Part shown: in pieces, positions 537-63,406 of the stretch
How the letters are laid out: each line of letters opens with the position of its first letter
Numbering within the stretch: position 1 is the stretch's first letter
Source: an uncultured Gemmatimonadales bacterium
GTDB taxonomy: Bacteria > Gemmatimonadota > Gemmatimonadetes > Gemmatimonadales > Gemmatimonadaceae
Length of the DNA stretch: 64,000 bases
NCBI GenBank assembly: GCA_963851265.1
Contig: CAWKNZ010000001.1
Location: 64,001-128,000, forward strand
Direction: 5' to 3'
The notes under the pieces: generated by a model
Databases searched by the model: none
Seen by the model: the letters and a program-made list of their open reading frames with translations, nothing else
What the model was told of the DNA's origin: nothing
Position numbers and translations under genes: made by a program

Positions 537-1127
537 GTGCGCGTCGGCGCCGTCGTCCTGGCCGCGGGCGGGTCGACCCGGCTCGGGCGTCCGAAGCAAC
601 TGGTGCGCTACGCCGGCGAGCCGCTCGTGCGGCGCGCGGCCCGCGCGGTGATCGACGCCGGGGCGCGGCCGGTAGTCGTCGTGCTCGGCGCGCGCGCGCA
701 CGACGTCGCCCCCGCGCTCGACGGCGTGCCGGCGCTCACCGTCGTCACGCACGCGCGTTGGGCGGACGGGCTCGGCGCCTCGCTGGCGGCGGGACTGCGC
801 GCGCTCGACGCGCTCGATCCGGACACCCCCCCGGACGGCGTGCTGCTGACCGTGTGCGACCAGCCGCTCGTCGACGCGGCTGCGTTAGGCGCGTTGCTGG
901 AGGCGTTCACCGGGCCCGGGTGTGCCGCGGCGGCGGAGTATGCCGGGACGCTCGGGGTGCCGGCGGTGATCGGGCGCGACCATCTGGACGCGCTGCGTGC
1001 CGCGACCGGGGACGCGGGAGCCGGTAGGTGGCTGCGCGCGCACACCGCACTCGTCACGCGGGTGCCGCTCGCGGCGGCCGCGTTCGACGTCGACACCGAG
1101 GCCGACGTCGCGCGGTTCACCGAATAG
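537..1127 (+). CDS. mocA: Molybdenum cofactor cytidylyltransferase (MocA-like nucleotidyltransferase)
   Basis: GTG at 537; VVLAAGGSTRLGRPKQL, CDQP, GDAGA and FDVDT motifs; directly follows xdhC. Confidence 0.85.
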   Translation: MRVGAVVLAAGGSTRLGRPKQLVRYAGEPLVRRAARAVIDAGARPVVVVLGARAHDVAPALDGVPALTVVTHARWADGLGASLAAGLRALDALDPDTPPDGVLLTVCDQPLVDAAALGALLEAFTGPGCAAAAEYAGTLGVPAVIGRDHLDALRAATGDAGAGRWLRAHTALVTRVPLAAAAFDVDTEADVARFTE

Positions 1128-1273
1128 CCGGGGCGCGTGTCGCCACCGTCCGCCCGCCCGCCCGCCCTCGCCCGCGGCGCCGTGCGGGCCGTGCGTCGCG
1201 GAGTGAGCGGGGCGCCCCGCGCCGCGTGGAGCGGCGGCGCGGGGTGCTTCCTGCCTTACGTGGGCCGTTCCGC

Positions 1274-1657
1274 TCAGCGCGCCGGCGGGCGGCCCGGCGC
1301 CGTGCTACCCGGTGTGGTGCTACCCGGCGTCGTCGTGCTACCGGGCGTCGTCGTGCTACCTGGCGTGCCCGTGCTGCCCGGCGTCGTGCTGCCCGGCGTG
1401 GTCGTACCGCCCGGCGTGCCCGTGCTACCCGGCGTCGTCGTACCGCCCGGCAGACTCGTACCGCCCGTGGTTGCGCCGCCGGTCGTACCGCCGGTGGTCG
1501 CGCCGCCAGCCGTCGCGCCACCCGGCGCGGTGGCCGGCGACGGCGAGGAACCGGCCGACGACTGCGACGACGGGGTGCAGCGCGCGCTGGCGACGGCGAG
1601 ACCGGCGACGAGCACGCCCTGCGCGATCCGGCGGGTCATGGCATGAGAACTCGACAT
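1274..1657 (-). CDS. Small exported, possibly lipid-anchored, protein made mostly of Gly/Thr/Pro repeats
   Basis: AGGAG about 7 nt upstream of ATG 1657; signal-like RRIAQGVLVAGLAVASARC; then GGATT and TPG(S/G)T(T/G) repeats. Confidence 0.6.
   Translation of the reverse strand: MSSSHAMTRRIAQGVLVAGLAVASARCTPSSQSSAGSSPSPATAPGGATAGGATTGGTTGGATTGGTSLPGGTTTPGSTGTPGGTTTPGSTTPGSTGTPGSTTTPGSTTTPGSTTPGSTAPGRPPAR
1302..1452. repeat. Imperfect tandem repeat of about 18 nt (ccggcgtcgtcgtgcta-like) encoding PG(S/G)TTT units
   Basis: Visible tandem units, about 8 copies. Confidence 0.75.
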
Positions 1658-1813
1658 GGGACACTCCTGGAAAAGTTGGGAAGTGCGTGGCCGGCCCAAC
1701 GGGCTGCAGCCGGCCTCGTGTGTCCGCGCGTCAGCGGCGGTCACCGTGTTGCGACACCTCGCGAGGCGGTCACGCAAAACGGCTTCCGCCGCGCCGCCGA
1801 TATCGCGACTTCT

Positions 1814-1830
1814 TGCGCCACGCGTGCCAA
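1814..1830 (-). promoter_or_regulatory. Possible sigma54 -24/-12 promoter for the repeat protein gene
   Basis: TTGGCACGCGTGGCGCA on the minus strand has GG-N10-GC spacing; lacks the TT before GC. Confidence 0.3.
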
Positions 1831-1929
1831 TTTGTATGCGAGTGTGTGATTAACGGCACGAGCCGCGGCACGGTCGCGTCGCACGTGCGCTACACGGCGC
1901 GCGGCCCGCGCATTGCCCCACTTCGGCGC

Positions 1930-4131
1930 ATGATGAAACTCTCTGTCGAGGGAACGTCGCTCGACCGTGTCGAGGGTGCGGCCAAGGTCACGGGACGGGC
2001 GCACTACACGGCGGACCTGACGCCGCCCGGGCTCGCCCACGCGGTCGCAGTGCAGAGCCCGGTCGCGCACGGCCGAATCGCCGAGATCGACACGGCCCCT
2101 GCCCTGCGCGCGCCGGGCGTGCTCGCCGTGATCACGCACCACGACGCGCCGCGCCTGTCGCCGTCCATCGTCGCCATGGACACCACCGGCGAGCGCGGCG
2201 GTGCCGGCACGCAGCACCTCCCACTGCAGGACGACGTCATCCACCACTGGGGGCAGCACGTGGCCGTGGTCGTGGCGGAGTCGTTCGAGCAGGCCCGCCA
2301 CGCCGCCGCGCTCGTGCGCGCGCGCTACGACGCCGAACGACCGGTGCTCGACATGGACGGGCCCGATGCGGCCCCGTTCACACCCACCAAGGTGTGGGGC
2401 GCCGCACCCGAGACGAAGCACGGCGACGTCGCCGCCGGGCTCGCCGCCGCCGACGTGCGCGTCGACGCGACGTACGTCACGCAGGTGCAGCACCACAACT
2501 CGATGGAGTTGCACTCGACGGTGGCGGCGTGGGACGGCGACGCCCTCACGCTCTACGAACCGTCGACGTGGGTGTACGGCGTGCGGAAGACGGTGGCCGG
2601 GTGGTTCGGACTGTTCGAGCACCAGGTGCGCGTGGTCCAACACCACATCGGAGGGTCGTTCGGGCACAAGGGGCCGACGTGGCCGCACGTCGCACTCGCG
2701 GTCATGGCGGCGCGTCGCGTGGGCCGCCCGGTGCGCCTCACGCTCACGCGCCCGCAGGAGTTCACCTCGGTCGGCTACCGCCCGCGCATCCGCCACCGCG
2801 TCCGGCTCGGCGCCACGCGCGACGGACGGCTCACCGCGCTGTCGCACGAGGCCCTCGCGCAGACCGCCCCGTTCGACACGCGCGTCGTCGCGCCGGTCAC
2901 GGCCACCACGCGCAAGCTCTACGCGTGCGACAACGTCGAGACCTCCTACCGCCTCGTCCACCTCAACCGCAACGGGCCGTTCACGATGCGCGGGCCCGGC
3001 GAGACGCCGGGGCTGTTCGCCGTCGAGAGCGCGATGGACGAGCTGGCCTGCGCGTTAGGCATCGACCCGCTCGAGCTGCGCCTCCGCAACCACGCCGACG
3101 CCGACCCCGAGTCGGGCCGCCCGTGGTCGAGCAAGCGGCTGCGCGCGTGCTACGCCGAGGCCGCCGCGCGCTTCGGGTGGGCCGCGCGCGACCCGCGACC
3201 GCGGTCGATGCGCGCGCGCGACGGCGGCGCGCGCGTCGGCTGGGGGATGGCCACCGCGGCCTACCACGCCAAGGCCGAGAAGACCGCGGCCCGCGCGCGC
3301 CTCGCGCCCGACGGCGCGGGCGGTCACCTCGTCACGGTCGAGAGCGCGACCGCGGACCCGGGCACCGGCGCCCGCACCGTGATGACGCAGGTCGCCGCCG
3401 ACGCGCTCGGCGTCCCGCCCGAGCGCGTGCGCTTCCACCTCGGCGACACGCACCTGCCCGAGGCGCCCATAGCGGCGGGCTCGCAGACGACCGCGAGCGT
3501 GGGCCCCGCGGTGCGCGCCGCGTGCCTCGCGCTCCGCGACAAGCTCCGCGCGCTCGCCGCGGCGCAGGGCCACCCGTTAGGCGACGGCGGCGACGCGCTC
3601 GCCGGCTACGCCGCGGCGCTCGCCCGCGCCGGCCTCGACGCCGTCGACGCCGACGCCGCGGTGGCCCCGCCCGAGGCGGCCACCGCGGAGTACACGCGCT
3701 ACTCGTTCGGCGCGCACTTCTGCGAGGTGCTCGTCGCGCCCGCGACGGGCGCGGTACGCGTCGCCCGCCACGTCGCGGCGTTCGACGTCGGACGCGTGCT
3801 CAACCCGCGGACCACCGTCAGCCAGCTCCGGGGCGGGCTGATCTGGGGGATCGGGCAGGCGCTCACCGAAGGCACGCACTACGACCCGCACACGGGCAAG
3901 GTGGTCAACGACAACCTCGCCGACTACCACGTGCCCGTGAACGCCGACGTCCCCGACCTCGACGCGTTCTTCGTCGACGCGGACGACCCGCGCGAGCTCA
4001 ACCCGTTAGGCACCAAGGCCGTGGGCGAGATCGCGACCGTCGGCGCGGCCGCGGCCGTCGCCAACGCGGTCTACCACGCCACCGGCGTGCGCGTGCGCGA
4101 CCTGCCCATCACGCCCGACCGCCTGCTCTGA
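1930..4131 (+). CDS. Xanthine dehydrogenase family molybdopterin-binding subunit (YagR/PaoC-like)
   Basis: DRVEGAAKVTGRAHY, HHNSMELH, IGGSFGHK, MRGPGETPG, SQLRGGLIWGIG and KAVGE motifs. Confidence 0.92.
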   Translation: MMKLSVEGTSLDRVEGAAKVTGRAHYTADLTPPGLAHAVAVQSPVAHGRIAEIDTAPALRAPGVLAVITHHDAPRLSPSIVAMDTTGERGGAGTQHLPLQDDVIHHWGQHVAVVVAESFEQARHAAALVRARYDAERPVLDMDGPDAAPFTPTKVWGAAPETKHGDVAAGLAAADVRVDATYVTQVQHHNSMELHSTVAAWDGDALTLYEPSTWVYGVRKTVAGWFGLFEHQVRVVQHHIGGSFGHKGPTWPHVALAVMAARRVGRPVRLTLTRPQEFTSVGYRPRIRHRVRLGATRDGRLTALSHEALAQTAPFDTRVVAPVTATTRKLYACDNVETSYRLVHLNRNGPFTMRGPGETPGLFAVESAMDELACALGIDPLELRLRNHADADPESGRPWSSKRLRACYAEAAARFGWAARDPRPRSMRARDGGARVGWGMATAAYHAKAEKTAARARLAPDGAGGHLVTVESATADPGTGARTVMTQVAADALGVPPERVRFHLGDTHLPEAPIAAGSQTTASVGPAVRAACLALRDKLRALAAAQGHPLGDGGDALAGYAAALARAGLDAVDADAAVAPPEAATAEYTRYSFGAHFCEVLVAPATGAVRVARHVAAFDVGRVLNPRTTVSQLRGGLIWGIGQALTEGTHYDPHTGKVVNDNLADYHVPVNADVPDLDAFFVDADDPRELNPLGTKAVGEIATVGAAAAVANAVYHATGVRVRDLPITPDRLL

Positions 4132-4150
4132 ACGGCTCCTCCGAACGGCG

Positions 4151-5899
4151 TCAGCCACCCTCCCCCGCGAGCGCGCGCACCGCGGCGAGCGTGTCGGCCT
4201 CCGCGGCCGGCTTGTCGTCGCGCACGCGCAGGATGCGCGGGAAGCGCAGCGCGTAGCCGGCCTTGTGCCGCGCGCTCTTCTGCACGACGTCGAACGTGAC
4301 CTCCAGCACCACCTCCGGCCGCACCTGCTGGAAGCGCCCGAACTTCTGCACCGTCAGCGCCTGCAGCCGCTCGGTGAGCGCGGCGACCTCGACGTCCGTG
4401 AGGCCGTTGTACGCCTTGCCCACGGTGAGCAGCGCGGGGTCGTCCTCCGACGCGCGCACGGCGAAGGTGTAGTCCGAGAGATACTTGGCGCGCCGCCCGT
4501 GCCCCCACTCCGCGCCGACGATCACCACGTCGAGCGTGGCGAGCGCCTTCTTCAGCTTGATCCACAGCTTGCCGCGGCGCCCGGGCGTGTAGGGCGAGTC
4601 GAGCGCCTTCGCGATGATCCCCTCGTTGCCCGCCGCGCGCGCCGCCGCGAACGCGGCCTCCACCGCCTCGGCCGTCGACGCCAGCTCGTGCGGCGTGAGG
4701 CGCGCGTACGGCTCGCCGCCGGCCGCCTCCGGCCAGGCGAGCGTGGCGAGGCGCGCCCGGCGCGCGGTGTACGGCTCGTCGATCACCAGCGCGCCGTCCC
4801 AGGCGAGCGCGTCGTAGGCGACGAACTGCACCGGCACCTCCGCGCGCAGCGCCGCGTCGGGCGCCTTGCGCCCCAGCCGCCGCTGCATCGCCGTGAACGG
4901 CAGCGCGCGCCGCGGGTCGGCGGGGTCGTAGGCGAGCAGCTCGCCGTCGAGGATCACCCCGTCGCCCGCGGTCTCGCCCAACGACGCGAGCGCGCCCGCC
5001 ACCTCGGGGTACCCGTGCGTGATCTCGTCGAGGGTGCGCGAGTACAGCGCGACGCGCACGGCGCCGTCCGCGCCACGCCCCACGTGCGCCTGCGCGCGGA
5101 TGCCGTCGTACTTGTCCTCCACGGCGAACGGCGCCGGCAGCGCGGCCGCGATCTCCTCCGCCGTGTCGAGCGGCTGCGCGAGCATGAACCCCATCGGGTG
5201 AAAGAGCGCGAGCCGCGCGTCGCCCAGCCGCCCGCCCCGCGCGAGCACCGCGACCTCGCCCACGTCGCCGCGCAGCAGGTTGGCGTGGCGCACCGCGCCT
5301 AACGTCGCGCCGAACGCCTTCGCGAGCGCCTCCTCCACCTGCGCCTCCTTCAGGCCGATGCGCAGCTCGCCGCCGCCCAGCAGCAGCTTCGCCGCGTACT
5401 GCGCCTCCGCCGGGCCCAGCGCGGCGAGCAGCGCGCGCACGCGGTCGCGCTTGGCGTGCGCCCCCCGCGTGGCGGCCAGCGCGTCGAACTCGGCCGCCAC
5501 GTCGCCGAGCGACCACCCGCTCGCCGGCGGCGGCGGATCGCGCTCCTCGAGCAGCAGGCGGGCCACGTCGCCGAGGTCGCCCACCGCGACCACGCGCGCG
5601 TGCAGCGCCTCGCGCGTGGCGCCGGTGACGGTCGAGATCGCGTCGCTCACCGCCGCGCCACCCACGCTCGTGGTGCGCTGGTCGTGGCGCGGGAACGGCA
5701 GCCCCGAGAAGAACCGCGCGGCGACCGCGAGCGCGCCGTCGTCGAGCGTCGGGAAGTAGGCCTCCAGCGCGGCGCCCTTTTCGAGGCGCTTGGTCGTGGC
5801 GCGCACCGCGTCGGCCGTGTCGCACCAGCGCTGGAAGGCGTCGGCCCGCAGCGCGTCGGCGGCAGGCGTGGGGGAACTCGGCGTGTCGGTCACGCCCAC
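4151..5899 (-). CDS. ATP-dependent DNA ligase
   Basis: Motif I EDKYDGIRAQ, ILDGE, EGIIAK, WIKLK, ALRFPRILRVRDDK; N-terminal DNA-binding domain. Confidence 0.95.
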   Translation of the reverse strand: MGVTDTPSSPTPAADALRADAFQRWCDTADAVRATTKRLEKGAALEAYFPTLDDGALAVAARFFSGLPFPRHDQRTTSVGGAAVSDAISTVTGATREALHARVVAVGDLGDVARLLLEERDPPPPASGWSLGDVAAEFDALAATRGAHAKRDRVRALLAALGPAEAQYAAKLLLGGGELRIGLKEAQVEEALAKAFGATLGAVRHANLLRGDVGEVAVLARGGRLGDARLALFHPMGFMLAQPLDTAEEIAAALPAPFAVEDKYDGIRAQAHVGRGADGAVRVALYSRTLDEITHGYPEVAGALASLGETAGDGVILDGELLAYDPADPRRALPFTAMQRRLGRKAPDAALRAEVPVQFVAYDALAWDGALVIDEPYTARRARLATLAWPEAAGGEPYARLTPHELASTAEAVEAAFAAARAAGNEGIIAKALDSPYTPGRRGKLWIKLKKALATLDVVIVGAEWGHGRRAKYLSDYTFAVRASEDDPALLTVGKAYNGLTDVEVAALTERLQALTVQKFGRFQQVRPEVVLEVTFDVVQKSARHKAGYALRFPRILRVRDDKPAAEADTLAAVRALAGEGG

Positions 5900-5902
5900 G
5901 CC

Positions 5903-8081: not shown

Positions 8082-9221
8082 TCACAGCTCCAACCCGAAC
8101 TGCGGCGTGTCGTCCGACCGGTCCGCCTCGGGCGCGAGCGCGGGCGTCGGCTTGCGTGCCGACTTGCGTGCCGCCGGGCGCGGCGCCGGGCGCGGCGCGT
8201 TCGCCGCGCTCGGCGCCCGCGCCGGGGCGCCCCCATCCTCGTCGGGCGTGCCCGCGCTTTGCGGGTGCTCCGCGAGCTGCTCCGCGTCGATGCCACGCGC
8301 GCGCAGCTCCGCAGCGAACGACGCGGGCCCGTGCACCGTCCACACCTTGCGCGCGCCGCTCTCGACCGCGGTCCGCACGAGTTCGTCGAAGTCGGCGTGG
8401 TCCGAGAGGGGAAGGACGAGGTCGCAGTCGCGATACATGTTGTGCGCCCCGGGGTGCAGCGCCCACCCGGTGAGATGACACACTCGCTTCCGCTCCAGCC
8501 CCTGCACCATCGCCGTCTTACGCGTTCCCGGCGTCGTGAGGAGCACGCGCCGCCCCACCTTGCCGCGCTCGTACCGCCCCCACGCGCCGGGACCGGGAAA
8601 GTCGTGCCCCAGCCGCACGTGCAGGTCGCACAGGTTGGCGATCGCGCCGTGCAGCACCACGTCGTACCCGTGGCGCGTCAGGTGCCAGAGCACCTCCTGC
8701 CCCTTGCCTAACGCATAGGCGAGCAGCACGGGCGTCGCCCCGTCCGCCAGCGCGTCGTCGACGAACGCGAACAGCCGGTCGAGCAGCTCGGCCTCGGCGG
8801 GAAACCGGTAGCGCGGATCGCCGAACGTGCACTCCATCACCAGCTCGTCCACGCGCGGAATTGTCACCGCGGGCGAGAAGGGGTTGGGCCGCAGCTTGTA
8901 GTCGCCCGTGTAGGCGAGGCGCCCCTCCGCCGACTCCGCGACCAGCATCGCGGAGCCGAGCGCGTGCCCGGCCGGGATGAGCGTGACGGCGGCGTCGGCG
9001 AACCGGGCGGTCTCGCCGAAGCGGAGCGTGACCGCATCGCGCGCGCCTCGACGGGCGTCGTGCAGGGCAGCCGTCTCGGCGGTGCAGAGGATGCGGGCCG
9101 CGCGCGAGCAGTGGTCGCTGTGGGCGTGCGAGACGAAGACGGTGCCCGGTGCGTCGCGCGCGTCGAGGTGAAGGTCGGACGGTGGGGAGTAGAGGCCCGA
9201 CGGGGTGAGGCGGAGCAGCAT
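8082..9221 (-). CDS. Ligase-associated DNA damage response exonuclease (MBL/beta-CASP fold)
   Basis: SHAHSDH, PAGHALGS, TGDYK, MECTFG, YALGKGQE, LSDHADF and TVHG motifs; upstream of the ligase. Confidence 0.88.
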   Translation of the reverse strand: MLLRLTPSGLYSPPSDLHLDARDAPGTVFVSHAHSDHCSRAARILCTAETAALHDARRGARDAVTLRFGETARFADAAVTLIPAGHALGSAMLVAESAEGRLAYTGDYKLRPNPFSPAVTIPRVDELVMECTFGDPRYRFPAEAELLDRLFAFVDDALADGATPVLLAYALGKGQEVLWHLTRHGYDVVLHGAIANLCDLHVRLGHDFPGPGAWGRYERGKVGRRVLLTTPGTRKTAMVQGLERKRVCHLTGWALHPGAHNMYRDCDLVLPLSDHADFDELVRTAVESGARKVWTVHGPASFAAELRARGIDAEQLAEHPQSAGTPDEDGGAPARAPSAANAPRPAPRPAARKSARKPTPALAPEADRSDDTPQFGLEL

Positions 9222-9240
9222 CGTGTCTACTATACCCCCG
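9222..9240. promoter_or_regulatory. Overlapping divergent -10 boxes serving two leaderless genes
   Basis: TACTAT (+, 9228-9233) is 7 nt before ATG 9241; TATAGT (-, 9234-9229) is 7 nt before ATG 9221. Confidence 0.7.
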
Positions 9241-19240: not shown

Positions 19241-19256
19241 GCGGTCAGGCGCGCGC

Positions 19257-26923: not shown

Positions 26924-26956
26924 CGCCTCAGCCGGCGCGCCCCGCCGGAGCGCTAC

Positions 26957-37529: not shown

Positions 37530-37552
37530 CCACGGCCTAACGTCACCGCACG

Positions 37553-50546: not shown

Positions 50547-50547
50547 G

Positions 50548-54875: not shown

Positions 54876-55464
54876 CGGCCCCGCGCACGGGTTCCTCCCC
54901 CTCACCCTGCTGCTCGGCGGCGTGCGCTCGGGCAAGAGCGCGCGCGCGGTCGCGATGGCCGATGCCCTCGCCGGCGCGGACGGGCGCGTGCTCTTCGCGG
55001 CCACGGCCGAGGCCTTCGACGACGACATGGCGCGTCGGATCGCCGCGCACCGGGCGGAGCGCCCACCGCACTGGCACGCGGTCGAGGCCCCGCTCGACCT
55101 CGCCGGGGCGGTCTCGGGCGCGCTCGCGGCGGCGGACGCGCCCTACGCGGCCGTCGTCGTCGACTGCCTCACGCTCTGGACGAGCAACCTGCTCCTCTCG
55201 CTCGCCGACCCGCGCGAGGCGGAGGCGCTCGCGGCCGAGCGCGCGGGGGAGTTGCTCGCCGTCGTGCCGGCCGCGCGGGGCGCGCGGTGGATCGTGGTGA
55301 GCAACGAGGTCGGGCTCGGCGTCGTCCCCGCGAGCGCGTTAGGCCGCGCCTTCCGCGACGCGCTCGGCCGCGTGAACCAGCGCGTCGCGGCCGCGGCCGA
55401 CGAGGTCACGCTGATGGTCGCGGGGCTGGAGGTGCCGGTGCGGGCGCGCCGGCCGCCGGGGTAG
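54868..55464 (+). CDS. cobU: Bifunctional adenosylcobinamide kinase/guanylyltransferase
   Basis: GGVRSGKS, RIAAHR, VDCLTLW, VSNEVGLG, FRDALG..NQ. Confidence 0.95.
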   Translation: MTNGPAHGFLPLTLLLGGVRSGKSARAVAMADALAGADGRVLFAATAEAFDDDMARRIAAHRAERPPHWHAVEAPLDLAGAVSGALAAADAPYAAVVVDCLTLWTSNLLLSLADPREAEALAAERAGELLAVVPAARGARWIVVSNEVGLGVVPASALGRAFRDALGRVNQRVAAAADEVTLMVAGLEVPVRARRPPG

Positions 55465-56080: not shown

Positions 56081-56419
56081 GAGTCTGGGAACGAGGTGCG
56101 CGCCGGGCGTTCCGTGCAACTGCAGCATAGCCGGTGGCGCAGTCTCGCGGACGCGGCACTGCTCGCGCGCCGCGACCGGCGCGCGTTCGCGTGGACCGTT
56201 CCCGGCGCGCGCGCCGGCGGCGGATCGGACGCCTAACGCGTCCGCCCGCGGCCCGCGCGACGCCGTGCGCGCGGACGCCTCCCGGAAAGTGTAGCAGGAT
56301 TGCCACATCGGTGACGGCCGCACCGTGGTGCGGCGTGTGTCGACGCGCGGACGTCGCCCGACGGCCGGAGGCGATCCCCAGAACTGAATGCTTCAGTTGC
56401 CGCCGTTCGCCGCGATCTG

Positions 56420-58006: not shown

Positions 58007-60787
58007 TCAACGCGCGTACCGGGCGCGCACGGCGACCGTGCGCCGCAGCTCGTCGGCGCTCTGCAGCACCTTGAGCCGGAGGTCCGCGGGCAGCGCACCG
58101 GTGCTGCCCGGCCCGTGCGCGGCGAGGTACGCGTCGACCGCGGCCAGCGCCTCGGGGCGCGTCCCCGCCCCGACGAGCGCGTCGAGCCAGCCGCCGACGA
58201 AGAAGATCCGCCGGTTGCGCTGCAGCCAGGGGAGGGAGTCGAGCGCGGGCGCGACGTAGGGCAGCACCAGCGCGTCCTGCGCCGGCGCGGTGAACGCGCC
58301 GAGGCTCGCGCTCGCCCACTCCTCGTTGAGCGAGGCGTCGGCGAAGTAGCGTCGGAAGTACTCGGCCTTGGTCGCCGCGTCCGGGCGTGCGGCGCCGGCC
58401 ACGAACGCGCGCCGCCGGCCGTCGCTCGTCGGGTCGCGGAGCGCCTCGGCGGCGAGCCGACGCTCCGCCGTGGGCGCGCCCCGGGCGACGAGCGTGGTCA
58501 CGATCGCCCACCGCGTGGGCGGGCGGAGCGGCGCGCCGGCCGCCGCGGCCGAGTCGAGCCGCGCGTCGAGCCGGTCGAGTGTGTGGTACGGGTCGGCCGC
58601 GACGGGCACCGCGGCCACCGCGACCAGCGCGTCGAGGTGCAGCTTGCGGATGCCGTACGGACGCGCGGTGTCGTCGGCCGCGCGCTCGAGCGCCTGGGCG
58701 ACGCCGGGGAGGAGCGCCTCGCCCTGCGCGGGGCCGAGCCAGCGCGTGCTCGCGCGCGTGACGCGGGCGAGCACGAACGCGGCGATCTGCTCGTCGTGCT
58801 CGCGCGGTAGGGCGGCGAGGGCCACCTCGAGGAAGCGCGCCGGGGCGTAGCGCCCCTCGCGCGCGAGGTCCCACAGCGCGCCCCAGAGCTGCGCGCGCAG
58901 CAGCGCGTCGGCCGCCACGGCGCCGTCGGCGGCGACGAGGTGCCGCTCCGCCCAGCGCACGCTCGGCGTGTCGAGCAGGGGCAGCGCGTACGCGTAGTCG
59001 CCCGCGTTGGGGAAGAGCAGCGCGGCCGCCGTGTCGGGCGACGCGTTAGGCGCCGCGGGCGCGGCGGGCAGCGCGACCGTCGCCGCCCGCGCGTCGAGCG
59101 CGACCGGCACGCGCGCCGGCGGCGCGCCGTCGCGCACGGCGAGCAGCTCGGCGCGGATCGGCCACGGCGCCGCGCCCGACACCGCGGGCTGCGCGGGGCG
59201 CTGCGTCACGCGCACCGCCTCCGGGGCGCCCGCGGGGCCGCCCCGCGTCGCCTCGGCGCGCGTCGCCTCGACGCGCGTCGCCTCGACCACCGGGATGCCC
59301 GGGCGCAGGATGTAGGCGTCGCCGAACGGGCCGAGGTCGCGCCCGGCCGCGCGCCCGACGGCGGCGAGCAGGTCGCGCCACGTCGCGTTGCCGAACGCGT
59401 GCGCGGCGAGGTAGGCGCGCAGCCCGCCGCGGAACGCGCGCGGGCCGACCACCGCCTCGAGCTGGCGCAGCACCGCGGGCGCCTTGTTGTAGACGATCGC
59501 GCCGTAGTTGCTCTTGGCCCGGTCGAGGTTGTCGAGCGGCTGGTAGACGGGCGTCGTGCCTAACGACGCGTCGACGGCCGCGGCGGGCGGGGCGTTGCGC
59601 AGGTAGAACGTCTTCCACGCGCCGCCGGCGGGGTCGAGGTCGTCCTGCACCTTGGCCGCCATGTACGTGGCGAAGCCCTCCTTGAGCCACAGGTCGTCGA
59701 ACCAGCGCATCGTGACCAGGTCGCCGAACCACTGGTGCGCGACCTCGTGGTACACCGTCGCGGTGCGCGCGAGGCGCTGCGGCGCGGTCGGCCGCTCGCG
59801 GTAGACGAAGCCGTCCTCGTTGTAGAACACCGCGCCCGGGTGCTCCATCCCGCCGAACGGGAAGGCGGGCGCGAGCACGACGTCGAACTTGCCGAACGCG
59901 TACGGCCGCCCGAAGTAGTCGCCCAGCCACGCGAGCGCGCGCCCGTTGGCGTCGAGGATCGAGTCCGCCTCGACCTCCGCCGCGCGCGAGCGGCGCACGT
60001 AGAGCGTCATCGCGCGGCCCGACGCCGTCCGCGTGATCCCCCGCCACGGGCCGGCCGCGAACGCGACGAGGTAGGTGCTGATCGGCGCCGTCTCCGCGAA
60101 GCGGAACGTGCGCACGCCGCCCGCGGGCGGCGCGGCGCCTAACCGGCCGCCCGGTGCGGAGTCGACCGCGGCGCCGTTGGCGACCGCCGTCCACCCCGCG
60201 GGCACGGTGAGCGCGAGCGACACGCGCGCCTTGAGGTCCGGCTGGTCGAAGCACGGGAAGAGCGCGTGCGCGTCGGACGGCACGAGCAGCGTGTAGAGGT
60301 AGTCGGCGCCGTCGGCCGCGTCGTGGTAGCGGATCACGCTCGCGCCGGACGGGGCGACCGCCGCCGCCGCGGAGAACGCGACCACGTTCTCGCCGGGGCG
60401 GAGCGCCGCGGCCGGGATCCGCACGTGCCCGCGCGCCCACACGTATCCGGTCCCGGGCGCGCCGCCCGCCGCGAGCGGGCGCCCGTTGGCCGCGACGTCC
60501 GTTAGGCGCAGGCCGCGGAAGTCGAGCACCGCGTCGCCGCCGCCCGCGCGGCGGAAGCGCACCGCGACGCGCACCGCCGCGGTGTCGCGCCCGGCGACGT
60601 CGACGTCGATCGCGTAGCGCACGTCGCGCACGCGGGCGGCGCGCCACTCGGCGAGCGCGCGCGAGACGCCGGGCGTGTCGGCGCCCGGGATGGTGCGCTG
60701 CGACACCGCAGCATGCGACACGCCGTTGCTGGCAGTCGGGGCGTGCGCTATTGCGCGCGTGCCCGCGGCCGGTGACAAAACGATCAT
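58007..60787 (-). CDS. pepN: M1 family aminopeptidase
   Basis: FPCFDQPDLKA, GGMEHPG, HEVAHQWFG...WLKEG, YNKA; start uncertain. Confidence 0.92.
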   Translation of the reverse strand: MIVLSPAAGTRAIAHAPTASNGVSHAAVSQRTIPGADTPGVSRALAEWRAARVRDVRYAIDVDVAGRDTAAVRVAVRFRRAGGGDAVLDFRGLRLTDVAANGRPLAAGGAPGTGYVWARGHVRIPAAALRPGENVVAFSAAAAVAPSGASVIRYHDAADGADYLYTLLVPSDAHALFPCFDQPDLKARVSLALTVPAGWTAVANGAAVDSAPGGRLGAAPPAGGVRTFRFAETAPISTYLVAFAAGPWRGITRTASGRAMTLYVRRSRAAEVEADSILDANGRALAWLGDYFGRPYAFGKFDVVLAPAFPFGGMEHPGAVFYNEDGFVYRERPTAPQRLARTATVYHEVAHQWFGDLVTMRWFDDLWLKEGFATYMAAKVQDDLDPAGGAWKTFYLRNAPPAAAVDASLGTTPVYQPLDNLDRAKSNYGAIVYNKAPAVLRQLEAVVGPRAFRGGLRAYLAAHAFGNATWRDLLAAVGRAAGRDLGPFGDAYILRPGIPVVEATRVEATRAEATRGGPAGAPEAVRVTQRPAQPAVSGAAPWPIRAELLAVRDGAPPARVPVALDARAATVALPAAPAAPNASPDTAAALLFPNAGDYAYALPLLDTPSVRWAERHLVAADGAVAADALLRAQLWGALWDLAREGRYAPARFLEVALAALPREHDEQIAAFVLARVTRASTRWLGPAQGEALLPGVAQALERAADDTARPYGIRKLHLDALVAVAAVPVAADPYHTLDRLDARLDSAAAAGAPLRPPTRWAIVTTLVARGAPTAERRLAAEALRDPTSDGRRRAFVAGAARPDAATKAEYFRRYFADASLNEEWASASLGAFTAPAQDALVLPYVAPALDSLPWLQRNRRIFFVGGWLDALVGAGTRPEALAAVDAYLAAHGPGSTGALPADLRLKVLQSADELRRTVAVRARYAR

Positions 60788-60823
60788 ACGAGAGGGCTCG
60801 ACGAAACGATTGCGCGGAAACAG

Positions 60824-63406
60824 GTGACGGCGGTGCGCCGACCCATCATGTTACGCCGTTCCTGCAGCCCGCCGCCGCCCGACTTCGTGCCGACGCCGTC
60901 CGCGACTCCGACCGATCTCGCGTTTACCAGTCCGGTAGTGCTTCGCACCCCCGCCAGCGCGTGGGTGCTCGACGCCCTGGACGAAGCGCTGTTTCTCGTC
61001 GACGCCGCGGGGCAGGTCACGTGGTGTAGCGCGCGCGCCCAGGAAATGCTCGCGGCGCCGCGCGACGAACTCACCGGCCGCCCGGTGCGCGACGCGGTCC
61101 CCGGCCTTCCCGCGCTCGACGCGCCGCCCGCGCGCCCGGTGACGTGGCGCGCACTCCGCCTCACGCGCCACGACGGCACCGCGCTCTGGGCCGACGTCAC
61201 CGCCGCCGCCCGCCGCCCGCTCGTCGCCGCAGCGGTCGACGGGCCGGGCCTCGCGCACGCGCGCGCCCACGCCGACGCCCACGGCGACGCCACCGGGTAC
61301 GGCAGCGACTATGTGACCGCGTACGCCGTGGCCGACGTCACCCCGCGCGTCACCGCCGAGGCGGCGCGCCGGCGCGCGGAGGATCGCTTCGGCACGCTCG
61401 TCGAGCAGGCGGTCGAGGGCATCTACGTCGTGCAGGACGACCGGTTCGTCTACGTGAACGCGCAGCTCGCCGCGCTCACCGGCTACTCGGTCGACGAACT
61501 CCTCGCGCTGCCCTCGGTGGGCGTGCTGCTCGCGCGCGGCGCGTACGCGCGCGCGGCCGCGACGCTCGCCCCCGAACAGGCGCGCGAGCGCAAGCGCGAG
61601 CGCGCCGACGACCGCCGCCGCTCCGACGCGCTGCTGCTCTGGAGCGCGGGGCGCCTGCCGCCCTTCGAACTGCGGCGCAAGGACGGCACGCGCCGCGAGG
61701 TCGAGCTGCGCGGGCGCGTAGCCGAGTACGGCGGCCGCCCCGCGGCGATCGGCACCGCGGTGGACGTCACCGAGCGCCGCCGCACCGAGGCCGCGCTCCG
61801 CCGCCAGGCGCTCATCGTCGACGTGCTGCACGACGCGGTGGTCGTGCTCGACCCCGACTTCCGCGTGCTCGACTGGAACCGCGGCGCGGAGCGCATGTAC
61901 GGCCACGCGCGCGCGCAGGCGGTGGGGCGCGACGCGCACTTCATGCACCCGGCCGTGCCGGCCGACGACGCCGCGGGCGCCGACGCGCAGGGCGCCGCGC
62001 AGCGCGCCGCCCTCGCGCGCGACGGCCGGTGGACGGGCGAGCTGCCCTTCGTGACGCGCGCGGGCACCGAGGGCGTCGCCGACGTCACCCTCGTCGCCAA
62101 CCGCGCGGCCGACGGCACCCTCCTCGGCTACATCGAGGTCAGCCGCGACGTGACGGCCCGCCGCCGCGCCGAGGCCGCGCTCGCCGCGCGCGAGGTGGAG
62201 CTGCGCCAGGCGCAGAAGATGGAGGCCGTCGGCCGCCTCGCCGGCGGCATCGCGCACGACTTCAACAACCTGCTCGCCGCCATCTCGAGCTACGCCGAGC
62301 TGCTGCTCGACGCGCTCCCCGAAGATCCCGAGGCCGCCGCCCCGGGCGCGCTCGCCGCCGTGGTCGCCGACGCGCGCGAGGACGTGCGCGAGATCCGCCG
62401 CGCGGCCGAGCGCGGGGCCACCCTCACGCGCCAGCTGCTCGCCTTCGGACGCGGGCAGCTGCTGCAGACGCGCGAGATCGACCTGAACGTGGTCGTCGGC
62501 GACCTCGGTCGCATGCTGGGCCGCGTGTTGGGGGCCGAGGTCGAGCTGCGGCTGGACCTCGCGGCCGACGCCGCGCCGGTGCTCGCCGACCCGGGGCAGC
62601 TGGAGCAGGTGCTGCTCAACCTCGCCGTGAACGCGCGCGACGCGATGCCCGGCGGCGGCGTGCTCTCGATCGGCACCCGCCACGTGGCCGTCCCCGCCGC
62701 GGGTGCGGGCGACCTGTCCCCCGGGCGGTACGTCGCGGTCGACGTGCGCGACACGGGCGTCGGCATGGACGCCGCCACGCGCGCGCGGATCTTCGAGCCG
62801 TTCTTCACGACCAAGCCCGCCGGGCAGGGCACGGGGCTCGGGCTGGCGATGGTCTACGGCATCGTCGCGCAGACGGGCGGGCGCGTGACGGTCGACAGCG
62901 CGCCGGGGAGGGGCACCACCTTCACCGTCTACCTCCCCGCACTCGCGGCGGCCGCACCGGCCGCACCCGAGCCCGCCCGCGAGTCGGCCGCGGCGCCGCG
63001 CGCGCCCGACGGCGCGGGCACGACGGTGCTCGTCGTCGACGACGAATCGGCGGTGCGCGGCGCCGCGGCGCGGGTGCTCGCCCGCCGCGGCTACACGGTG
63101 CTCGAGGCGCGCGACGGCGTCGAGGCGTTAGGCGTCGCCGAGCGCTTCGCGGGCCCGGTGCACCTGCTCCTGAGCGACGTGCGCATGCCCGGCATGGACG
63201 GGCGCGAACTCGCCCGCCGCTTCCGCGTGGCGCGCCCCGAAGCGCGCGTGCTGCTGATGACCGGCTACCCGGGGTCGGAGTCGCCCAACCCCGACGGCGA
63301 CGCGGACTCCGCGACCGACCTCGACGCGCCCGCGCTCCAGAAGCCGTTCACCCTCGAGCTGCTGGCCGAGCGCGTGCGGGAAGTGACCGCGCGCGCCGAG
63401 CGGTAG
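60824..63406 (+). CDS. Cytoplasmic multi-PAS hybrid histidine kinase/receiver protein
   Basis: Three PAS-like segments; QKMEAVGRLAGGIAHDFNN, NARDAM, FTTK..GTGLGL; receiver VVDD, LSDVRMP, KPF. Confidence 0.93.
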   Translation: MTAVRRPIMLRRSCSPPPPDFVPTPSATPTDLAFTSPVVLRTPASAWVLDALDEALFLVDAAGQVTWCSARAQEMLAAPRDELTGRPVRDAVPGLPALDAPPARPVTWRALRLTRHDGTALWADVTAAARRPLVAAAVDGPGLAHARAHADAHGDATGYGSDYVTAYAVADVTPRVTAEAARRRAEDRFGTLVEQAVEGIYVVQDDRFVYVNAQLAALTGYSVDELLALPSVGVLLARGAYARAAATLAPEQARERKRERADDRRRSDALLLWSAGRLPPFELRRKDGTRREVELRGRVAEYGGRPAAIGTAVDVTERRRTEAALRRQALIVDVLHDAVVVLDPDFRVLDWNRGAERMYGHARAQAVGRDAHFMHPAVPADDAAGADAQGAAQRAALARDGRWTGELPFVTRAGTEGVADVTLVANRAADGTLLGYIEVSRDVTARRRAEAALAAREVELRQAQKMEAVGRLAGGIAHDFNNLLAAISSYAELLLDALPEDPEAAAPGALAAVVADAREDVREIRRAAERGATLTRQLLAFGRGQLLQTREIDLNVVVGDLGRMLGRVLGAEVELRLDLAADAAPVLADPGQLEQVLLNLAVNARDAMPGGGVLSIGTRHVAVPAAGAGDLSPGRYVAVDVRDTGVGMDAATRARIFEPFFTTKPAGQGTGLGLAMVYGIVAQTGGRVTVDSAPGRGTTFTVYLPALAAAAPAAPEPARESAAAPRAPDGAGTTVLVVDDESAVRGAAARVLARRGYTVLEARDGVEALGVAERFAGPVHLLLSDVRMPGMDGRELARRFRVARPEARVLLMTGYPGSESPNPDGDADSATDLDAPALQKPFTLELLAERVREVTARAER

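What the first reader, a model, noticed from the sequence alone, without database searches (positions are those of the whole stretch)
884..63133. Highly iterated non-palindromic motif CGTTAGGC/GCCTAACG across the window
Seen (hand count, may miss some): GTTAGGC on + at 884, 3054, 3576, 4005, 19236, 25672, 27785, 36921, 38347, 46445, 52741, 54479, 55338, 59045, 60501, 63127; GCCTAAC at 5297, 8706, 23184, 23535, 26918, 29162, 29477, 37535, 40634, 41140, 42749, 43617, 44464, 44992, 46068, 46709, 47894, 49932, 56231, 59558, 60137. That is 37 sites, 33 with the full 8-mer, against roughly 2 expected for the 8-mer at about 75% GC. Mostly read as rare TTA-GGC (Leu-Gly), but also as GTT-AGG, CCT-AAC, CTA-ACG, as stop codons and in intergenic DNA, so the signal is at DNA level. 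No strand bias (16 vs 21), unlike Chi or KOPS. Inference: a DNA-uptake-sequence-like, HIP1-like, methyltransferase or nucleoid-protein target.
Basis: partly seen in the sequence, partly recalled or inferred. Interest (0 to 1): 0.8.

Follow-up and report, generated by a model that had tools for sequence, protein, structure and literature searches.

The report
Genome-wide DNA word CGTTAGGC, uptake-signal-like
A soil bacterium of the Gemmatimonadaceae and a scattered set of its relatives have the eight-letter DNA word CGTTAGGC written through ordinary genes, stop codons and spacers far more often than chance or codon habits allow, in the manner of the DNA-uptake "self tags" of Neisseria and Haemophilus, but what reads the word is still unknown.

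Summary
CGTTAGGC occurs 33 times in the window (0.94 expected) and 1396 times in the 4.6-Mb genome, where it is by far the most over-represented 8-mer. It survives a codon-aware null: 1029 copies inside genes against 42.

The signal is in the DNA, not in translation. In all four readable frames on both strands, the rare codon that completes the word is used 10-52% of the time, against 0.2-2.6% elsewhere.

- **Turnover:** sites change by synonymous substitution between species.
- **Polarity:** none was seen.
- **Spacing:** a second copy within about 250 bp is avoided, whatever kind of site the neighbour is.
- **Spread:** patchy. 12 of 301 genomes of the phylum are enriched, and one genus holds about 4000, about 4000 and 66 copies.

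Best reading (0.5) is a transmission bias like that of DNA uptake sequences. None of these tracks the word: Vsr, ComP, integron integrase, lamin-tail proteins, three pilin-cluster proteins tested, and one unnamed protein of the pilus locus. ComEC and PilQ are found everywhere.

The word equals the integron attC core, but this link is unexplained. This scan has already reported the same word from other windows of this genome and from one other genome.

The parts
883..890 (+). CGTTAGGC read GCG-TTA-GGC in the MobA-like NTP transferase gene (537-1127 +)
3053..3060 (+). CGTTAGGC read GCG-TTA-GGC in the molybdopterin-binding oxidoreductase gene (1846-4131 +)
3575..3582 (+). CGTTAGGC read CCG-TTA-GGC, same gene
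4004..4011 (+). CGTTAGGC read CCG-TTA-GGC, same gene
5297..5304 (-). CGTTAGGC read ACG-TTA-GGC in the ATP-dependent DNA ligase gene (4151-5899 -)
8706..8713 (-). CGTTAGGC read GCG-TTA-GGC in a metallo-beta-lactamase-fold gene (8082-9254 -)
19236..19242 (+). 7-mer GTTAGGC supplying the TAG stop (GGT-TAG) of the TPR-HD-GGDEF-AAA signalling gene (14420-19240 +)
23184..23191 (-). CGTTAGGC read TCG-TTA-GGC in ispG/gcpE (22758-24131 -)
23535..23542 (-). CGTTAGGC read CCG-TTA-GGC in ispG/gcpE
25672..25678 (+). 7-mer (TGTTAGGC) read GTG-TTA-GGC in the flavin amine oxidase gene (25436-26923 +)
26918..26925 (-). GCCTAACG on the + strand supplying the GCC-TAA stop of the amine oxidase gene
27785..27791 (+). 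7-mer read on the antisense strand as CCT-AAC in the aldo/keto reductase gene (27650-28549 -)
29162..29169 (-). CGTTAGGC read TCG-TTA-GGC in the argininosuccinate lyase gene (28667-30088 -)
29477..29484 (-). CGTTAGGC read CCG-TTA-GGC in the argininosuccinate lyase gene
36920..36927 (+). CGTTAGGC read C-GTT-AGG-C (Val-Arg) in a PD40 beta-propeller gene (36477-37529 +)
37535..37542 (-). CGTTAGGC in the 23-base spacer between genes 36477-37529 and 37553-38443
38346..38353 (+). CGTTAGGC read GCG-TTA-GGC in an EamA transporter gene (37553-38443 +)
40634..40641 (-). CGTTAGGC read GCG-TTA-GGC in a histidine phosphatase gene (40316-40984 -)
41140..41147 (-). CGTTAGGC read CCG-TTA-GGC in cobS (40969-41757 -)
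42749..42756 (-). CGTTAGGC read CCG-TTA-GGC in the corrinoid adenosyltransferase gene (42419-43063 -)
43617..43624 (-). CGTTAGGC read CCG-TTA-GGC in an aminotransferase gene (43056-44204 -)
44464..44471 (-). CGTTAGGC read GCG-TTA-GGC in cobD/cbiB (44212-45084 -)
44992..44999 (-). CGTTAGGC read ACG-TTA-GGC in cobD/cbiB
46068..46075 (-). CGTTAGGC read CCG-TTA-GGC in a gene without a Pfam match (45186-46277 -)
46444..46451 (+). CGTTAGGC read on the antisense strand as CCT-AAC in the TonB-dependent receptor gene (46301-48532 -)
46709..46716 (-). CGTTAGGC read GCG-TTA-GGC in the TonB-dependent receptor gene
47894..47901 (-). CGTTAGGC read GCG-TTA-GGC in the TonB-dependent receptor gene
49932..49939 (-). 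CGTTAGGC read ACG-TTA-GGC in the FecCD permease gene (49530-50546 -)
52740..52747 (+). CGTTAGGC read ACG-TTA-GGC in a DUF4015 gene (52082-53191 +)
54478..54485 (+). CGTTAGGC read CCG-TTA-GGC in cobQ (53322-54875 +)
55337..55344 (+). CGTTAGGC read GCG-TTA-GGC in cobU (54868-55464 +)
56231..56238 (-). CGTTAGGC in the spacer between genes 55478-56128 and 56420-57433
59044..59051 (+). CGTTAGGC read on the antisense strand as CCT-AAC in the M1 aminopeptidase gene (58007-60706 -)
59558..59565 (-). CGTTAGGC read TCG-TTA-GGC in the M1 aminopeptidase gene
60137..60143 (-). 7-mer (GGTTAGGC) read CGG-TTA-GGC in the M1 aminopeptidase gene
60500..60507 (+). CGTTAGGC read on the antisense strand as GC-CTA-ACG in the M1 aminopeptidase gene
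63126..63133 (+). CGTTAGGC read GCG-TTA-GGC in a PAS hybrid histidine kinase gene (60938-63406 +)

Best explanation
(C/T)GTTAGGC is a signal in double-stranded DNA that some protein reads without regard to strand or reading frame. It is kept at hundreds to thousands of copies by a transmission bias (molecular drive), not by the benefit of each single site. The most likely source of that bias is sequence-preferring DNA uptake followed by homologous recombination, as with the DUS of Neisseriaceae and the USS of Pasteurellaceae. On this reading, fragments that carry the word enter cells more often. Alleles in which a synonymous change has created the word therefore spread. The word accumulates wherever the protein sequence permits it, until nearly every stretch of a few hundred bases to a few kilobases holds one. 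Shown here: the DNA-level nature of the word, its strength, its turnover between species, its lack of polarity, its short-range interference and its patchy spread.
For: (1) Strength and specificity. There are 1396 copies, 24 times the order-3 Markov expectation, and this is the top z-score of all 8-mers. Of 1925 TTAGG in the genome, 96% follow G and 93% precede C. The 24 one-mismatch words together are at observed/expected 0.99 by my sum of the order-2 expectations.

(2) DNA level, both orientations. When the rest of the word is in place, the completing codon is used as follows: TTA 570/2013 (0.2% elsewhere), CCT 140/473 (2.6%), CTA 42/413 (0.2%), GTT 30/58 (2.6%), AGG 30/118 (1.5%). In addition, 89 of 422 TAA stops are GCC-TAA-CG and 74 of 721 TAG stops are CGT-TAG-GC. 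217 sites are intergenic.

(3) Short-range interference. Occupancy of eligible sites is 12/238 when another copy lies within 200 bp, against 25-38% at 300-5000 bp. This holds whether the neighbour is a TTA-frame site (19/273), a site in another frame (9/113) or intergenic (3/28). The same deficit below 200-300 bp is seen in G001, G004 and G012, whose densities differ threefold. It matches the experimental finding that two USS within 100 bp do not raise uptake, and the view that even spacing follows from drive (PMC7811141, passages read; PMC2397512 and PMC1939737, passages).

(4) No polarity. Counts are 708 forward and 688 reverse. Sense and antisense occupancies are alike in two regions where gene strand is strongly one-sided.

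(5) Turnover. At about 80% identity, 32-56% of sites are shared with G001 or G004. The unshared orthologues are mostly CGCTCGGC, CGTTGGGC or CGCTGGGC, that is, other Leu codons.

(6) Close pairs of 45 bp or less are intergenic in 15 of 19 cases. Most lie just behind gene ends, and several form hairpins.

(7) The machinery exists. ComEC is found in 31/31 genomes. A full-length PilQ-like secretin is found in 30/31. G000 has DprA and a pilin-PilMNO-PilQ locus. tRNA-Leu(UAA) is present.

(8) Occupancy rises with GC3, from 13% in the lowest sextile to 36% in the highest. This is what a recombination-linked process would give, if GC3 marks recombination. That last step is my inference.
Against: No uptake or transformation has been shown for this phylum. 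No paper in the library joins Gemmatimon* with 'DNA uptake sequence'.

The one known receptor type is missing. ComP_DUS has no match over its cut-off in any of the 10 enriched genomes, and its only match over the cut-off is in the poor genome G014.

The competence genes found are equally present in poor genomes, so they explain nothing.

The spread is patchy even within a genus (G235 3896, G292 4141, G288 66). DUS and USS, by contrast, are family-wide.

Sampled poor relatives show no alternative word, or 'dialect' (G006 400 kb, G015 200 kb, G020 80 kb).

The long stretches without the word are not foreign DNA. They are core genes: gidA, parAB and mnmE in one, and dprA, mutS2, dnaG, pheST and recN in another.

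One-mismatch variants are not over-represented as a class, unlike DUS and USS (against PMC1939737).

The identity with the integron core is left as a coincidence.
Confidence: 0.5

Rival explanations
1. Motif-directed biased repair or gene conversion. A sequence-specific enzyme (a nicking endonuclease, a glycosylase, or a methyltransferase-linked repair as proposed for HIP1 and for Dcm/Vsr) resolves mismatches in favour of the word. Heteroduplexes and replication errors are therefore converted towards CGTTAGGC.
For: Sites arise by single synonymous substitutions. The patchy spread, even within a genus, looks like a mobile enzyme gene. The most enriched one-mismatch word is TGTTAGGC (243 copies, 13-26 times expectation), which is what CpG deamination of the word would give. 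CGTTGGGC, one transition away, is at 2.2 times expectation.
Against: Vsr (PF03852) was found in 0 of 10 enriched genomes and only in 3 poor ones. A site-autonomous repair bias does not predict that an eligible site within 250 bp of another copy stays unconverted. One-mismatch words are not depleted as a class. The word is not palindromic, unlike HIP1 and the Dcm site. No candidate enzyme was identified.
Confidence: 0.15
2. A binding site for an abundant chromosomal protein. This could be a nucleoid-associated or chromosome-organising factor, or a non-polar protective 'self' signal against a nuclease. Each site would be kept by selection for that function.
For: The exclusion zone is a fixed 200-300 bp, whether the mean spacing is 0.76 kb or 2.6 kb. 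The densest genome is more regular than random (G012, CV 0.82). There are direct pairs 12-19 bp apart in spacers. The largest stretch without the word in G000 (45 kb, 0 of 37 eligible sites occupied) surrounds [16 protein letters not shown], and the same region is at about half density in G001 and G004.
Against: Selection on each of thousands of sites would have to beat a codon bias that holds TTA at 0.2% elsewhere. That is hard without a drive (my inference). No polarity was seen, so Chi-like and KOPS-like roles are excluded. The parB region of G012, an independent genus, has normal density. A core chromosomal function would not be expected to differ 60-fold within one genus.
Confidence: 0.15
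3. An integron link. The word is read by the integron integrase or a relative of it, for example as secondary 'attG' integration sites or as decoys, or it spread from attC sites.
For: The word fits the attC/attI core GTTRRRY and its inverse RYYYAAC (consensus recalled, not taken from a call). G000 itself has attC-like pairs of the form GCCTAACGCC, then 90-114 nt, then CGTTAGGCG, at C10:188.9-203.8 kb and at C6:1591 beside intI. In poor relatives most hits are arrays spaced about 0.5-0.6 kb, some of them beside intI (G021:C80, G019:C26 and C83).
Against: By my reading of the table, integrase over the cut-off occurs in 13 of 21 poor and 5 of 10 enriched genomes. It is present in both enriched and poor members of genus g42. 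It is split by an inserted serine-recombinase gene in G000. In G001 it is a partial match with a stop, and in G012, the densest genome, it is fragmented. The sites arise by substitution without insertion or deletion. They lie inside essential genes, where cassette insertion would be lethal. None of the window's sites forms an attC-like pair.
Confidence: 0.08
4. An artefact of sequencing, base-calling or assembly at a modified motif.
For: The platform of this assembly is unknown to me. The word has an AT core that is odd for a 73% GC genome.
Against: The word is enriched in many independent assemblies with 1 to 960 contigs. Orthologous sites are shared between species. The protein sequence is kept, because Leu-Gly is conserved with other Leu codons in the relatives. 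A tRNA-Leu(UAA) exists. Contigs of a public soil run are identical over three sites, though this may be the source sample.
Confidence: 0.01

Closest known systems
DNA uptake sequences: DUS of Neisseriaceae (10-12 nt, read by the minor pilin ComP) and USS of Pasteurellaceae (9-nt core, receptor unknown)
   Same: A short exact non-palindromic word at 0.3-1.2 per kb. Equal on both strands, with no replichore polarity. Written into coding DNA at permissive frames, and also into spacers. Some inverted pairs lie behind genes. Spacing is more even than random, and a second copy close by brings no gain. The word is shared by related species, with turnover of single sites.
   Different: It is 7-8 nt long and lies in another phylum. 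No uptake has been shown, and there is no ComP homologue. The spread is patchy even within a genus, not family-wide. No dialects were found in the poor relatives sampled. One-mismatch words are not enriched as a class. Stretches without the word hold core and DNA-maintenance genes, not foreign DNA. The word coincides with the integron core site.
HIP1 of cyanobacteria (GCGATCGC), and over-representation linked to Dcm/Vsr very-short-patch repair
   Same: A hyper-abundant octamer placed in genes against codon habits. Its spread among relatives is patchy.
   Different: HIP1 is a palindrome tied to methyltransferase sites (recalled, not taken from a call). This word is asymmetric, and Vsr was not found in any enriched genome.
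Chi sites and the FtsK/SpoIIIE orienting sequences (KOPS, SRS)
   Same: An over-represented asymmetric octamer read by a DNA-handling protein.
   Different: Those are strongly skewed towards one strand of each replichore and are only mildly over-represented (recalled). Here sense and antisense occupancies are alike, and the excess is 24-fold.
Integron attC/attI core site GTTRRRY with its inverse core RYYYAAC
   Same: The sequence is identical. Real attC-like pairs and cassette arrays with this exact 8-mer occur in this genome and this order.
   Different: More than 98% of the copies in G000 are single sites inside ordinary genes, without the paired imperfect palindrome. Their abundance does not follow the integrase gene.

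Membership tests
DNA uptake sequences (DUS/USS) | Competent cells take up DNA carrying the word in preference to DNA without it | not testable with these tools
   Needs a cultured enriched strain. No paper in the library links Gemmatimon* with 'DNA uptake sequence'.
DNA uptake sequences (DUS/USS) | One exact short word hugely over-represented genome-wide | tested here: met
   1396 copies against 58 expected (order-3 Markov), the top z-score of all 8-mers. 1029 against 42 under a synonymous-codon shuffle.
DNA uptake sequences (DUS/USS) | Both orientations equally frequent, no replichore polarity | tested here: met
   708 forward and 688 reverse. Occupancy is 27% and 31% for sense sites against 14% and 27% for antisense sites in two regions of one-sided gene strand. 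The replichores themselves could not be mapped, because GC skew is flat.
DNA uptake sequences (DUS/USS) | Present in coding DNA at frames the protein tolerates, and in spacers | tested here: met
   781 TTA-GGC, 166 CCT-AAC, 60 CTA-ACG, 22 GTT-AGG, 150 at stop codons and 217 intergenic.
DNA uptake sequences (DUS/USS) | Even spacing, with no gain from a second copy close by | tested here: met
   Occupancy is 12/238 within 200 bp against 25-38% at 300-5000 bp. The effect is independent of the neighbour's type and is seen in four genomes. Literature: PMC7811141 (passages read).
DNA uptake sequences (DUS/USS) | Inverted pairs that act as terminators behind genes | tested here: inconclusive
   5 to 6 hairpin pairs, and 15 of 19 close pairs intergenic, mostly behind gene ends. 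This is far fewer than in Haemophilus (109 pairs, PMC7811141). Terminator function was not tested.
DNA uptake sequences (DUS/USS) | Under-represented in recently acquired DNA | tested here: inconclusive
   Occupancy falls with lower GC3. However, the two regions without the word that I annotated hold core genes, not mobile DNA.
DNA uptake sequences (DUS/USS) | The word, or a dialect of it, is shared across the whole family | tested here: not met
   Only 10 of 71 sampled genomes of the family exceed twice the control. Genus g42 holds 3896, 4141 and 66 copies. No other hyper-abundant word was found in G006, G015 or G020.
DNA uptake sequences (DUS/USS) | ComP-type minor pilin receptor (Neisseriaceae only) | tested here: not met
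   PF16732 gives 13 of 31 genomes with weak matches. The only match over the cut-off is in the poor genome G014.
DNA uptake sequences (DUS/USS) | Uptake and recombination machinery present (ComEC, DprA, type IV pilus) | tested here: met
   ComEC in 31/31. A PilQ-like secretin in 30/31, just under the cut-off. G000 has DprA and a pilin-PilMNO-PilQ locus. All are present in poor genomes too.
HIP1 / VSP-repair-driven words | A palindromic word overlapping a methyltransferase site, with a Vsr-type endonuclease | tested here: not met
   The word is asymmetric. Vsr is found in 0 of 10 enriched genomes. Methyltransferases were not surveyed.
Chi / KOPS | Strong strand skew that switches at the origin and the terminus | tested here: not met
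   Motif strand follows gene strand only through the number of eligible sites. Occupancies of the two orientations are alike.
Integron attC site | An inverse core and a core 50-150 nt apart, forming an imperfect palindrome, in arrays beside intI | tested here: not met
   Only about 8 such pairs among roughly 1760 7-mer sites in G000, and none among the window's 37 sites.

The most novel reading that the evidence does not exclude
The uptake machinery, or another DNA-capturing protein, of these bacteria would have evolved to fish for gene cassettes. Every attC site carries GCCTAAC...GTTAGGC. On this reading, the genome-wide spread of the word through housekeeping genes is the by-product of that preference acting as a molecular drive. 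This would couple natural transformation and integrons at the level of DNA recognition, and it would explain why the most abundant word of these genomes is spelled exactly like the attC core.
Probability: 0.1. Interest if true: 0.9.

Novelty: new variant of a known kind. Interest (0 to 1): 0.8.

Why it matters
Uptake-type "self tags" are known from only two proteobacterial families, and the receptor is known in only one of them. Here a word of the same strength appears in a soil phylum, with a different sequence and no ComP.

Its on/off spread even within one genus offers a natural experiment for finding what reads such words, and for settling whether drive alone can write them.

If the word instead marks a repair bias or a chromosomal protein, it would be a new genome-shaping force strong enough to override codon bias at a quarter of all eligible sites.

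There is also a practical side. The word inflates TTA, CCT, CTA and AGG codon counts and fixes the context of a fifth of TAA stops. This matters for codon-usage work and for gene prediction in these genomes.

Tried and rejected
1. **Vsr-type repair.** PF03852 was found in 3 of 31 genomes, all poor.

2. **ComP receptor.** Only weak pilin-like matches, with no pattern.

3. **ComEC and PilQ as discriminators.** They are present in 31/31 and 30/31 genomes.

4. **Integron integrase as reader, or as a casualty of the word.** No relation to abundance.

5. **Lamin-tail-domain proteins.** Found in 7 of 31 genomes, with no pattern. I read only the search listing and abstract start of PMC12478041.

6. 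**An unnamed 376-aa protein of the pilus locus, and three pilin-cluster proteins of G000.** Tested against enriched and poor genomes, with no pattern. These were single-protein queries, and pilins diverge fast, so absence is 'not found with this query'.

7. **Dialects.** No other hyper-abundant word in 400 kb of G006, 200 kb of G015 or 80 kb of G020. The top words of G029 are tandem heptamer arrays, which are a different thing.

8. **Exclusion of the word from the ParB/origin zone as a general rule.** Seen in G000, and partly in G001 and G004, which are syntenic and so not independent. Not seen in G012.

9. **Rare-codon clustering as the cause of the interference.** Rejected, because intergenic and other-frame neighbours interfere just as much.

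10. **Divergent flanks as a mark of sites imported by recombination.** The flanks of species-specific sites are no more divergent than those of control words (0.80 against 0.78-0.80). Shared sites lie in more conserved regions (0.87 against 0.83, P = 4e-5), but this is confounded with GC3.

11. **Replichore skew.** Not measurable, because GC skew is flat and the assembly has 12 contigs.

12. **Literature.** A full-text search for the 7-mer gave 4851 papers, and none of the 30 listed was relevant. A search for attG + integron + GTT gave nothing bearing on genome-wide words among the 10 of 59 papers listed.

13. **Public reads.** Only one soil run holds part of the stretch, and it is kept as contigs with the library type not on record. 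It cannot settle the platform question.

14. **Named relatives.** The ispG query reached mostly other phyla. Only 7 Gemmatimonadaceae loci came back, and 1 of them is enriched.

Full report
**1. The observation**

CGTTAGGC or its complement occurs 33 times in the 64-kb window. Dinucleotide-preserving shuffles expect 0.94 and 2.01. The window is 73-78% GC. It is C1:64001-128000 of a 4.6-Mb assembly in 12 contigs.

Genome-wide there are 1396 copies, at 0.27-0.41 per kb on every contig. Under Markov models of order 0 to 3 the expectation is 145, 83, 50 and 58. The word has the highest z-score of all 8-mers (175), and the next-ranked words are its shifted versions.

The word is sharply bounded. 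Of 1925 TTAGG in the genome, 96% follow G, 93% precede C and 77% have C two bases before. The flanks carry no consensus beyond codon periodicity.

**2. It is a DNA word, not a codon effect**

I called genes with a codon model trained on this genome: 3631 genes covering 87% of the DNA. The 1396 sites divide as follows.

| Reading | Sites |
|---|---|
| xCG-TTA-GGC on the coding strand | 781 |
| G-CCT-AAC-G (antisense) | 166 |
| GC-CTA-ACG (antisense) | 60 |
| C-GTT-AGG-C (sense) | 22 |
| GCC-TAA stop | 81 |
| CGT-TAG stop | 69 |
| Intergenic (15.5% of sites, on 12.8% of the DNA) | 217 |

The excess of the Leu-Gly frame is only a matter of how many sites can hold the word. When the rest of the word is already in place, the rare codon that completes it is used at similar rates in every frame.

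| Completing codon | Use in context | Use elsewhere |
|---|---|---|
| TTA | 570/2013 (28%) | 0.2% |
| CCT | 140/473 (30%) | 2.6% |
| CTA | 42/413 (10%) | 0.2% |
| GTT | 30/58 | 2.6% |
| AGG | 30/118 | 1.5% |

A fifth of all TAA stops (89/422) are GCC-TAA-CG, and a tenth of TAG stops (74/721) are CGT-TAG-GC.

A shuffle of synonymous codons within each gene keeps the protein and each gene's own codon counts. It leaves 42.0 +/- 6.5 copies against 1029 observed. In the window's genes it leaves 0.80 +/- 0.90 against 30.

The window's 37 sites lie in ordinary genes: cobalamin salvage and transport, argH, ispG, an ATP-dependent DNA ligase, sensor kinases and a peptidase. A tRNA-Leu(UAA) gene is present.

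**3. It is real, and it is inherited with turnover**

The same word is enriched in all four other genomes of the genus (727 to 2415 copies). It is also enriched in five further genera of the 31 relatives first searched. The highest count is 6360 copies in G012, whose GC content is only 63%. Most other relatives hold 6-50 copies, fewer than the reversed-word control.

I aligned 400 kb each of G001 and G004 to G000; 280 kb and 252 kb aligned, at about 80% identity. Between 32% and 56% of sites are shared. Comparable GC-rich control words are shared at 18-55% (mostly 20-40%). The unshared orthologues are chiefly CGCTCGGC, CGTTGGGC and CGCTGGGC. So the Leu-Gly is kept and only the codon changes.

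Contigs of one soil-metagenome run are identical over three of the window's sites. That run may be the window's own source.

The nearest named relatives of the window's ispG are Gemmatimonadaceae MAGs. One of 7 such loci is enriched, at 0.75 per kb. Seventy-two loci from other phyla hold 6 copies in 1.29 Mb.

**4. Features that constrain the mechanism**

(a) *No polarity.* Counts are 708 forward and 688 reverse. In two regions of contig C2 where genes are strongly one-sided, sense occupancy is 27% and 31%, against 14% and 27% for antisense. GC skew is flat, so the replichores themselves could not be mapped.

(b) *Specificity.* The 24 one-mismatch words together sit at observed/expected 0.99 (my sum of the order-2 column). 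Only TGTTAGGC (243 copies), AGTTAGGC and CGTTGGGC are raised.

(c) *Short-range interference.* An eligible site is occupied in 6/118 cases when another copy lies within 100 bp. The figures are 6/120 at 100-200 bp, 24/126 at 200-300 bp, 25-38% between 300 bp and 5 kb, and 2/32 beyond 10 kb. The effect is the same whether the neighbour is a TTA-frame site (19/273), a site in another frame or on the other strand (9/113), or intergenic (3/28). It is therefore not a matter of clustered rare codons. Inter-site distances below 200-300 bp are depleted in G000, G001, G004 and G012, although their mean spacing ranges from 0.76 to 2.6 kb. G012 is more regular than random, with CV 0.82.

(d) *Close pairs.* The few pairs that do exist at 45 bp or less are intergenic in 15 of 19 cases. 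Most lie just behind gene ends or between convergent genes, and several form hairpins.

(e) *GC3.* Occupancy rises with GC3, from 13% in the lowest sextile of genes to 36% in the highest.

(f) *Stretches without the word.* There are 23 of 12 kb or more. The two regions I annotated are not mobile DNA.
- The largest (C1:182876-227962; 37 eligible sites, none occupied) holds mnmG/gidA, parA, parB and mnmE.
- The other (C2:1124879-1172684) holds obg, dprA, hrcA, dnaJ, mutS2, dnaG, infC, rplT, pheST, folD, xseA, dxs and recN.

**5. Spread**

I surveyed 301 genomes of the phylum at 80% completeness or more. Reading the table by eye, the word exceeds twice the reversed-word control in these groups.

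| Group | Enriched genomes |
|---|---|
| Own family | 10 of 71 |
| Second family of the order (both in genus g72) | 2 of 125 |
| All other genomes | 0 of 105 |

Within genus g42, two genomes hold 3896 and 4141 copies and the third holds 66.

These tallies include four unpublished genomes (G011, G078, G117, G198). All four are poor in the word, and no conclusion rests on them.

Poor relatives do not carry another word in its place (G006, G015, G020).

**6. The integron coincidence**

The word fits the integron core GTTRRRY and its inverse RYYYAAC (consensus recalled).

G000 has genuine attC-like pairs, GCCTAACGCC followed after 90-114 nt by CGTTAGGCG, in an array on contig C10 and beside intI on C6. 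In poor relatives most hits are arrays spaced about 0.5-0.6 kb, some of them beside an integrase gene.

Yet the integrase does not follow the word.
- By my reading of the table, it is over the cut-off in 13 of 21 poor and 5 of 10 enriched genomes.
- It is present in both enriched and poor members of g42.
- In G000 it is split by an insertion that carries a large serine recombinase.
- In G001 it is a partial match with a stop, and in G012 it is fragmented.

Copies arise by substitution, not by insertion. None of the window's sites is part of an attC-like pair. I cannot explain the identity of the two sequences. By my own estimate, chance would give it at well under 1%.

**7. Search for a reader**

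| Candidate | Result |
|---|---|
| Vsr | 0 of 10 enriched genomes |
| ComP_DUS | nothing over cut-off in enriched genomes |
| ComEC | 31/31 |
| PilQ-like secretin | 30/31 |
| Lamin-tail proteins | 7/31, no pattern |
| Unnamed 376-aa protein of the pilus locus | no pattern |
| Three proteins of two pilin clusters | no pattern |

No candidate emerged.

**8. Interpretation**

Something holds the least-favoured Leu codon at 28% of eligible sites. It acts alike on both strands and in all frames. It turns sites over between species. It stops acting when another copy is within about 250 bp. Such a force is more easily a bias in transmission than selection on each site.

The one documented bias of this kind is sequence-preferring DNA uptake followed by recombination. 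The published properties of DUS and USS match what is seen here:
- no orientation bias;
- many copies inside genes;
- even spacing;
- no gain in uptake from two copies within 100 bp;
- a few inverted pairs behind genes.

These come from passages of PMC1939737, PMC2397512 and PMC7811141.

The misfits are real:
- the spread is patchy even within a genus;
- there is no dialect in the poor relatives sampled;
- there is no ComP;
- core DNA-maintenance genes lie among the stretches without the word;
- one-mismatch words are not enriched as a class.

I put the uptake-type drive at 0.5, a motif-directed repair bias at 0.15, a chromosomal protein site at 0.15, an integron-linked reader at 0.08 and an artefact at 0.01. 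The rest is something not yet thought of.

**9. Earlier work in this scan**

At least six other windows of this genome and one other genome have already been reported with the same word and the same uptake-like reading.

To my knowledge from those short notes, the following are new here:
- the distance-dependent interference and its independence of neighbour type;
- the codon-aware nulls;
- the rise of occupancy with GC3;
- the finding that stretches without the word are core DNA;
- the absence of dialects;
- the within-genus contrast;
- the negative phyletic tests.

I found no paper on this word in the library. The earlier notes are unchecked AI notes, and they are not independent support.

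Noticed in passing
L091-L100 (G029:C4:100001-300000): A relative from another family of the order lacks the word. Instead it has tandem heptamer arrays (GAGGTRA)n, often as inverted pairs 80-550 bp apart. AGAGGTAA occurs 44 times against 0.5 expected in 200 kb. This looks like a dispersed intergenic element, not a single-copy word.
   Followed up: partly
L127 (G000:C6:1-9000), about 3005-6044: The genome's integron integrase gene is split. Model positions 2-265 map to 5244-6044 and positions 260-313 map to 3005-3166. About 2.1 kb lies between them and encodes a large serine recombinase (Resolvase, Recombinase and Zn-ribbon domains).
   Followed up: partly
G000:C10:188935-203785 (L128) and C6:1591-1701: attC-like elements of the form GCCTAACGCC, then 90-114 nt, then CGTTAGGCG, with small ORFs between them. 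This is a cassette array, or a cluster of attC sites lacking an integrase.
   Followed up: no
G000:C1:182876-227962 (L121-L123), just outside the window: The longest stretch of the genome without the word (45 kb, 0 of 37 eligible sites occupied) surrounds mnmG/gidA, parA, parB and mnmE, which is probably the origin region. The syntenic regions of G001 and G004 are at about half density. The parB region of G012 is normal.
   Followed up: yes
window 29485-36919: A 7.4-kb stretch without the word holds argG, a stand-alone TonB Plug fragment (31890-32336), a gene for a 23S rRNA intervening-sequence protein (32472-32963), ArgR, a gene like replication initiator protein A (33744-34610) and an S41 peptidase. 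The fragment and the RPA-like gene may be remnants of a mobile element.
   Followed up: no
window 40316-55464: A cobalamin salvage and transport cluster: two histidine phosphatases, cobS, cobO, an aminotransferase, cbiB, a TonB-dependent receptor, an ABC importer, cobQ and cobU. It is ordinary, but it is the part of the window richest in the word.
   Followed up: partly
genus g42 (G235, G292, G288): Two genomes of one genus hold about 4000 copies of the word and the third holds 66. All three have an integron integrase over the cut-off.
   Followed up: partly
window 49019-49352: Soil-metagenome contigs pile up to word depths of 132-3376 on this 330-base part of the ABC-transporter ATPase gene. 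This is a conserved nucleotide-binding motif shared by many organisms, not a feature of this genome.
   Followed up: no
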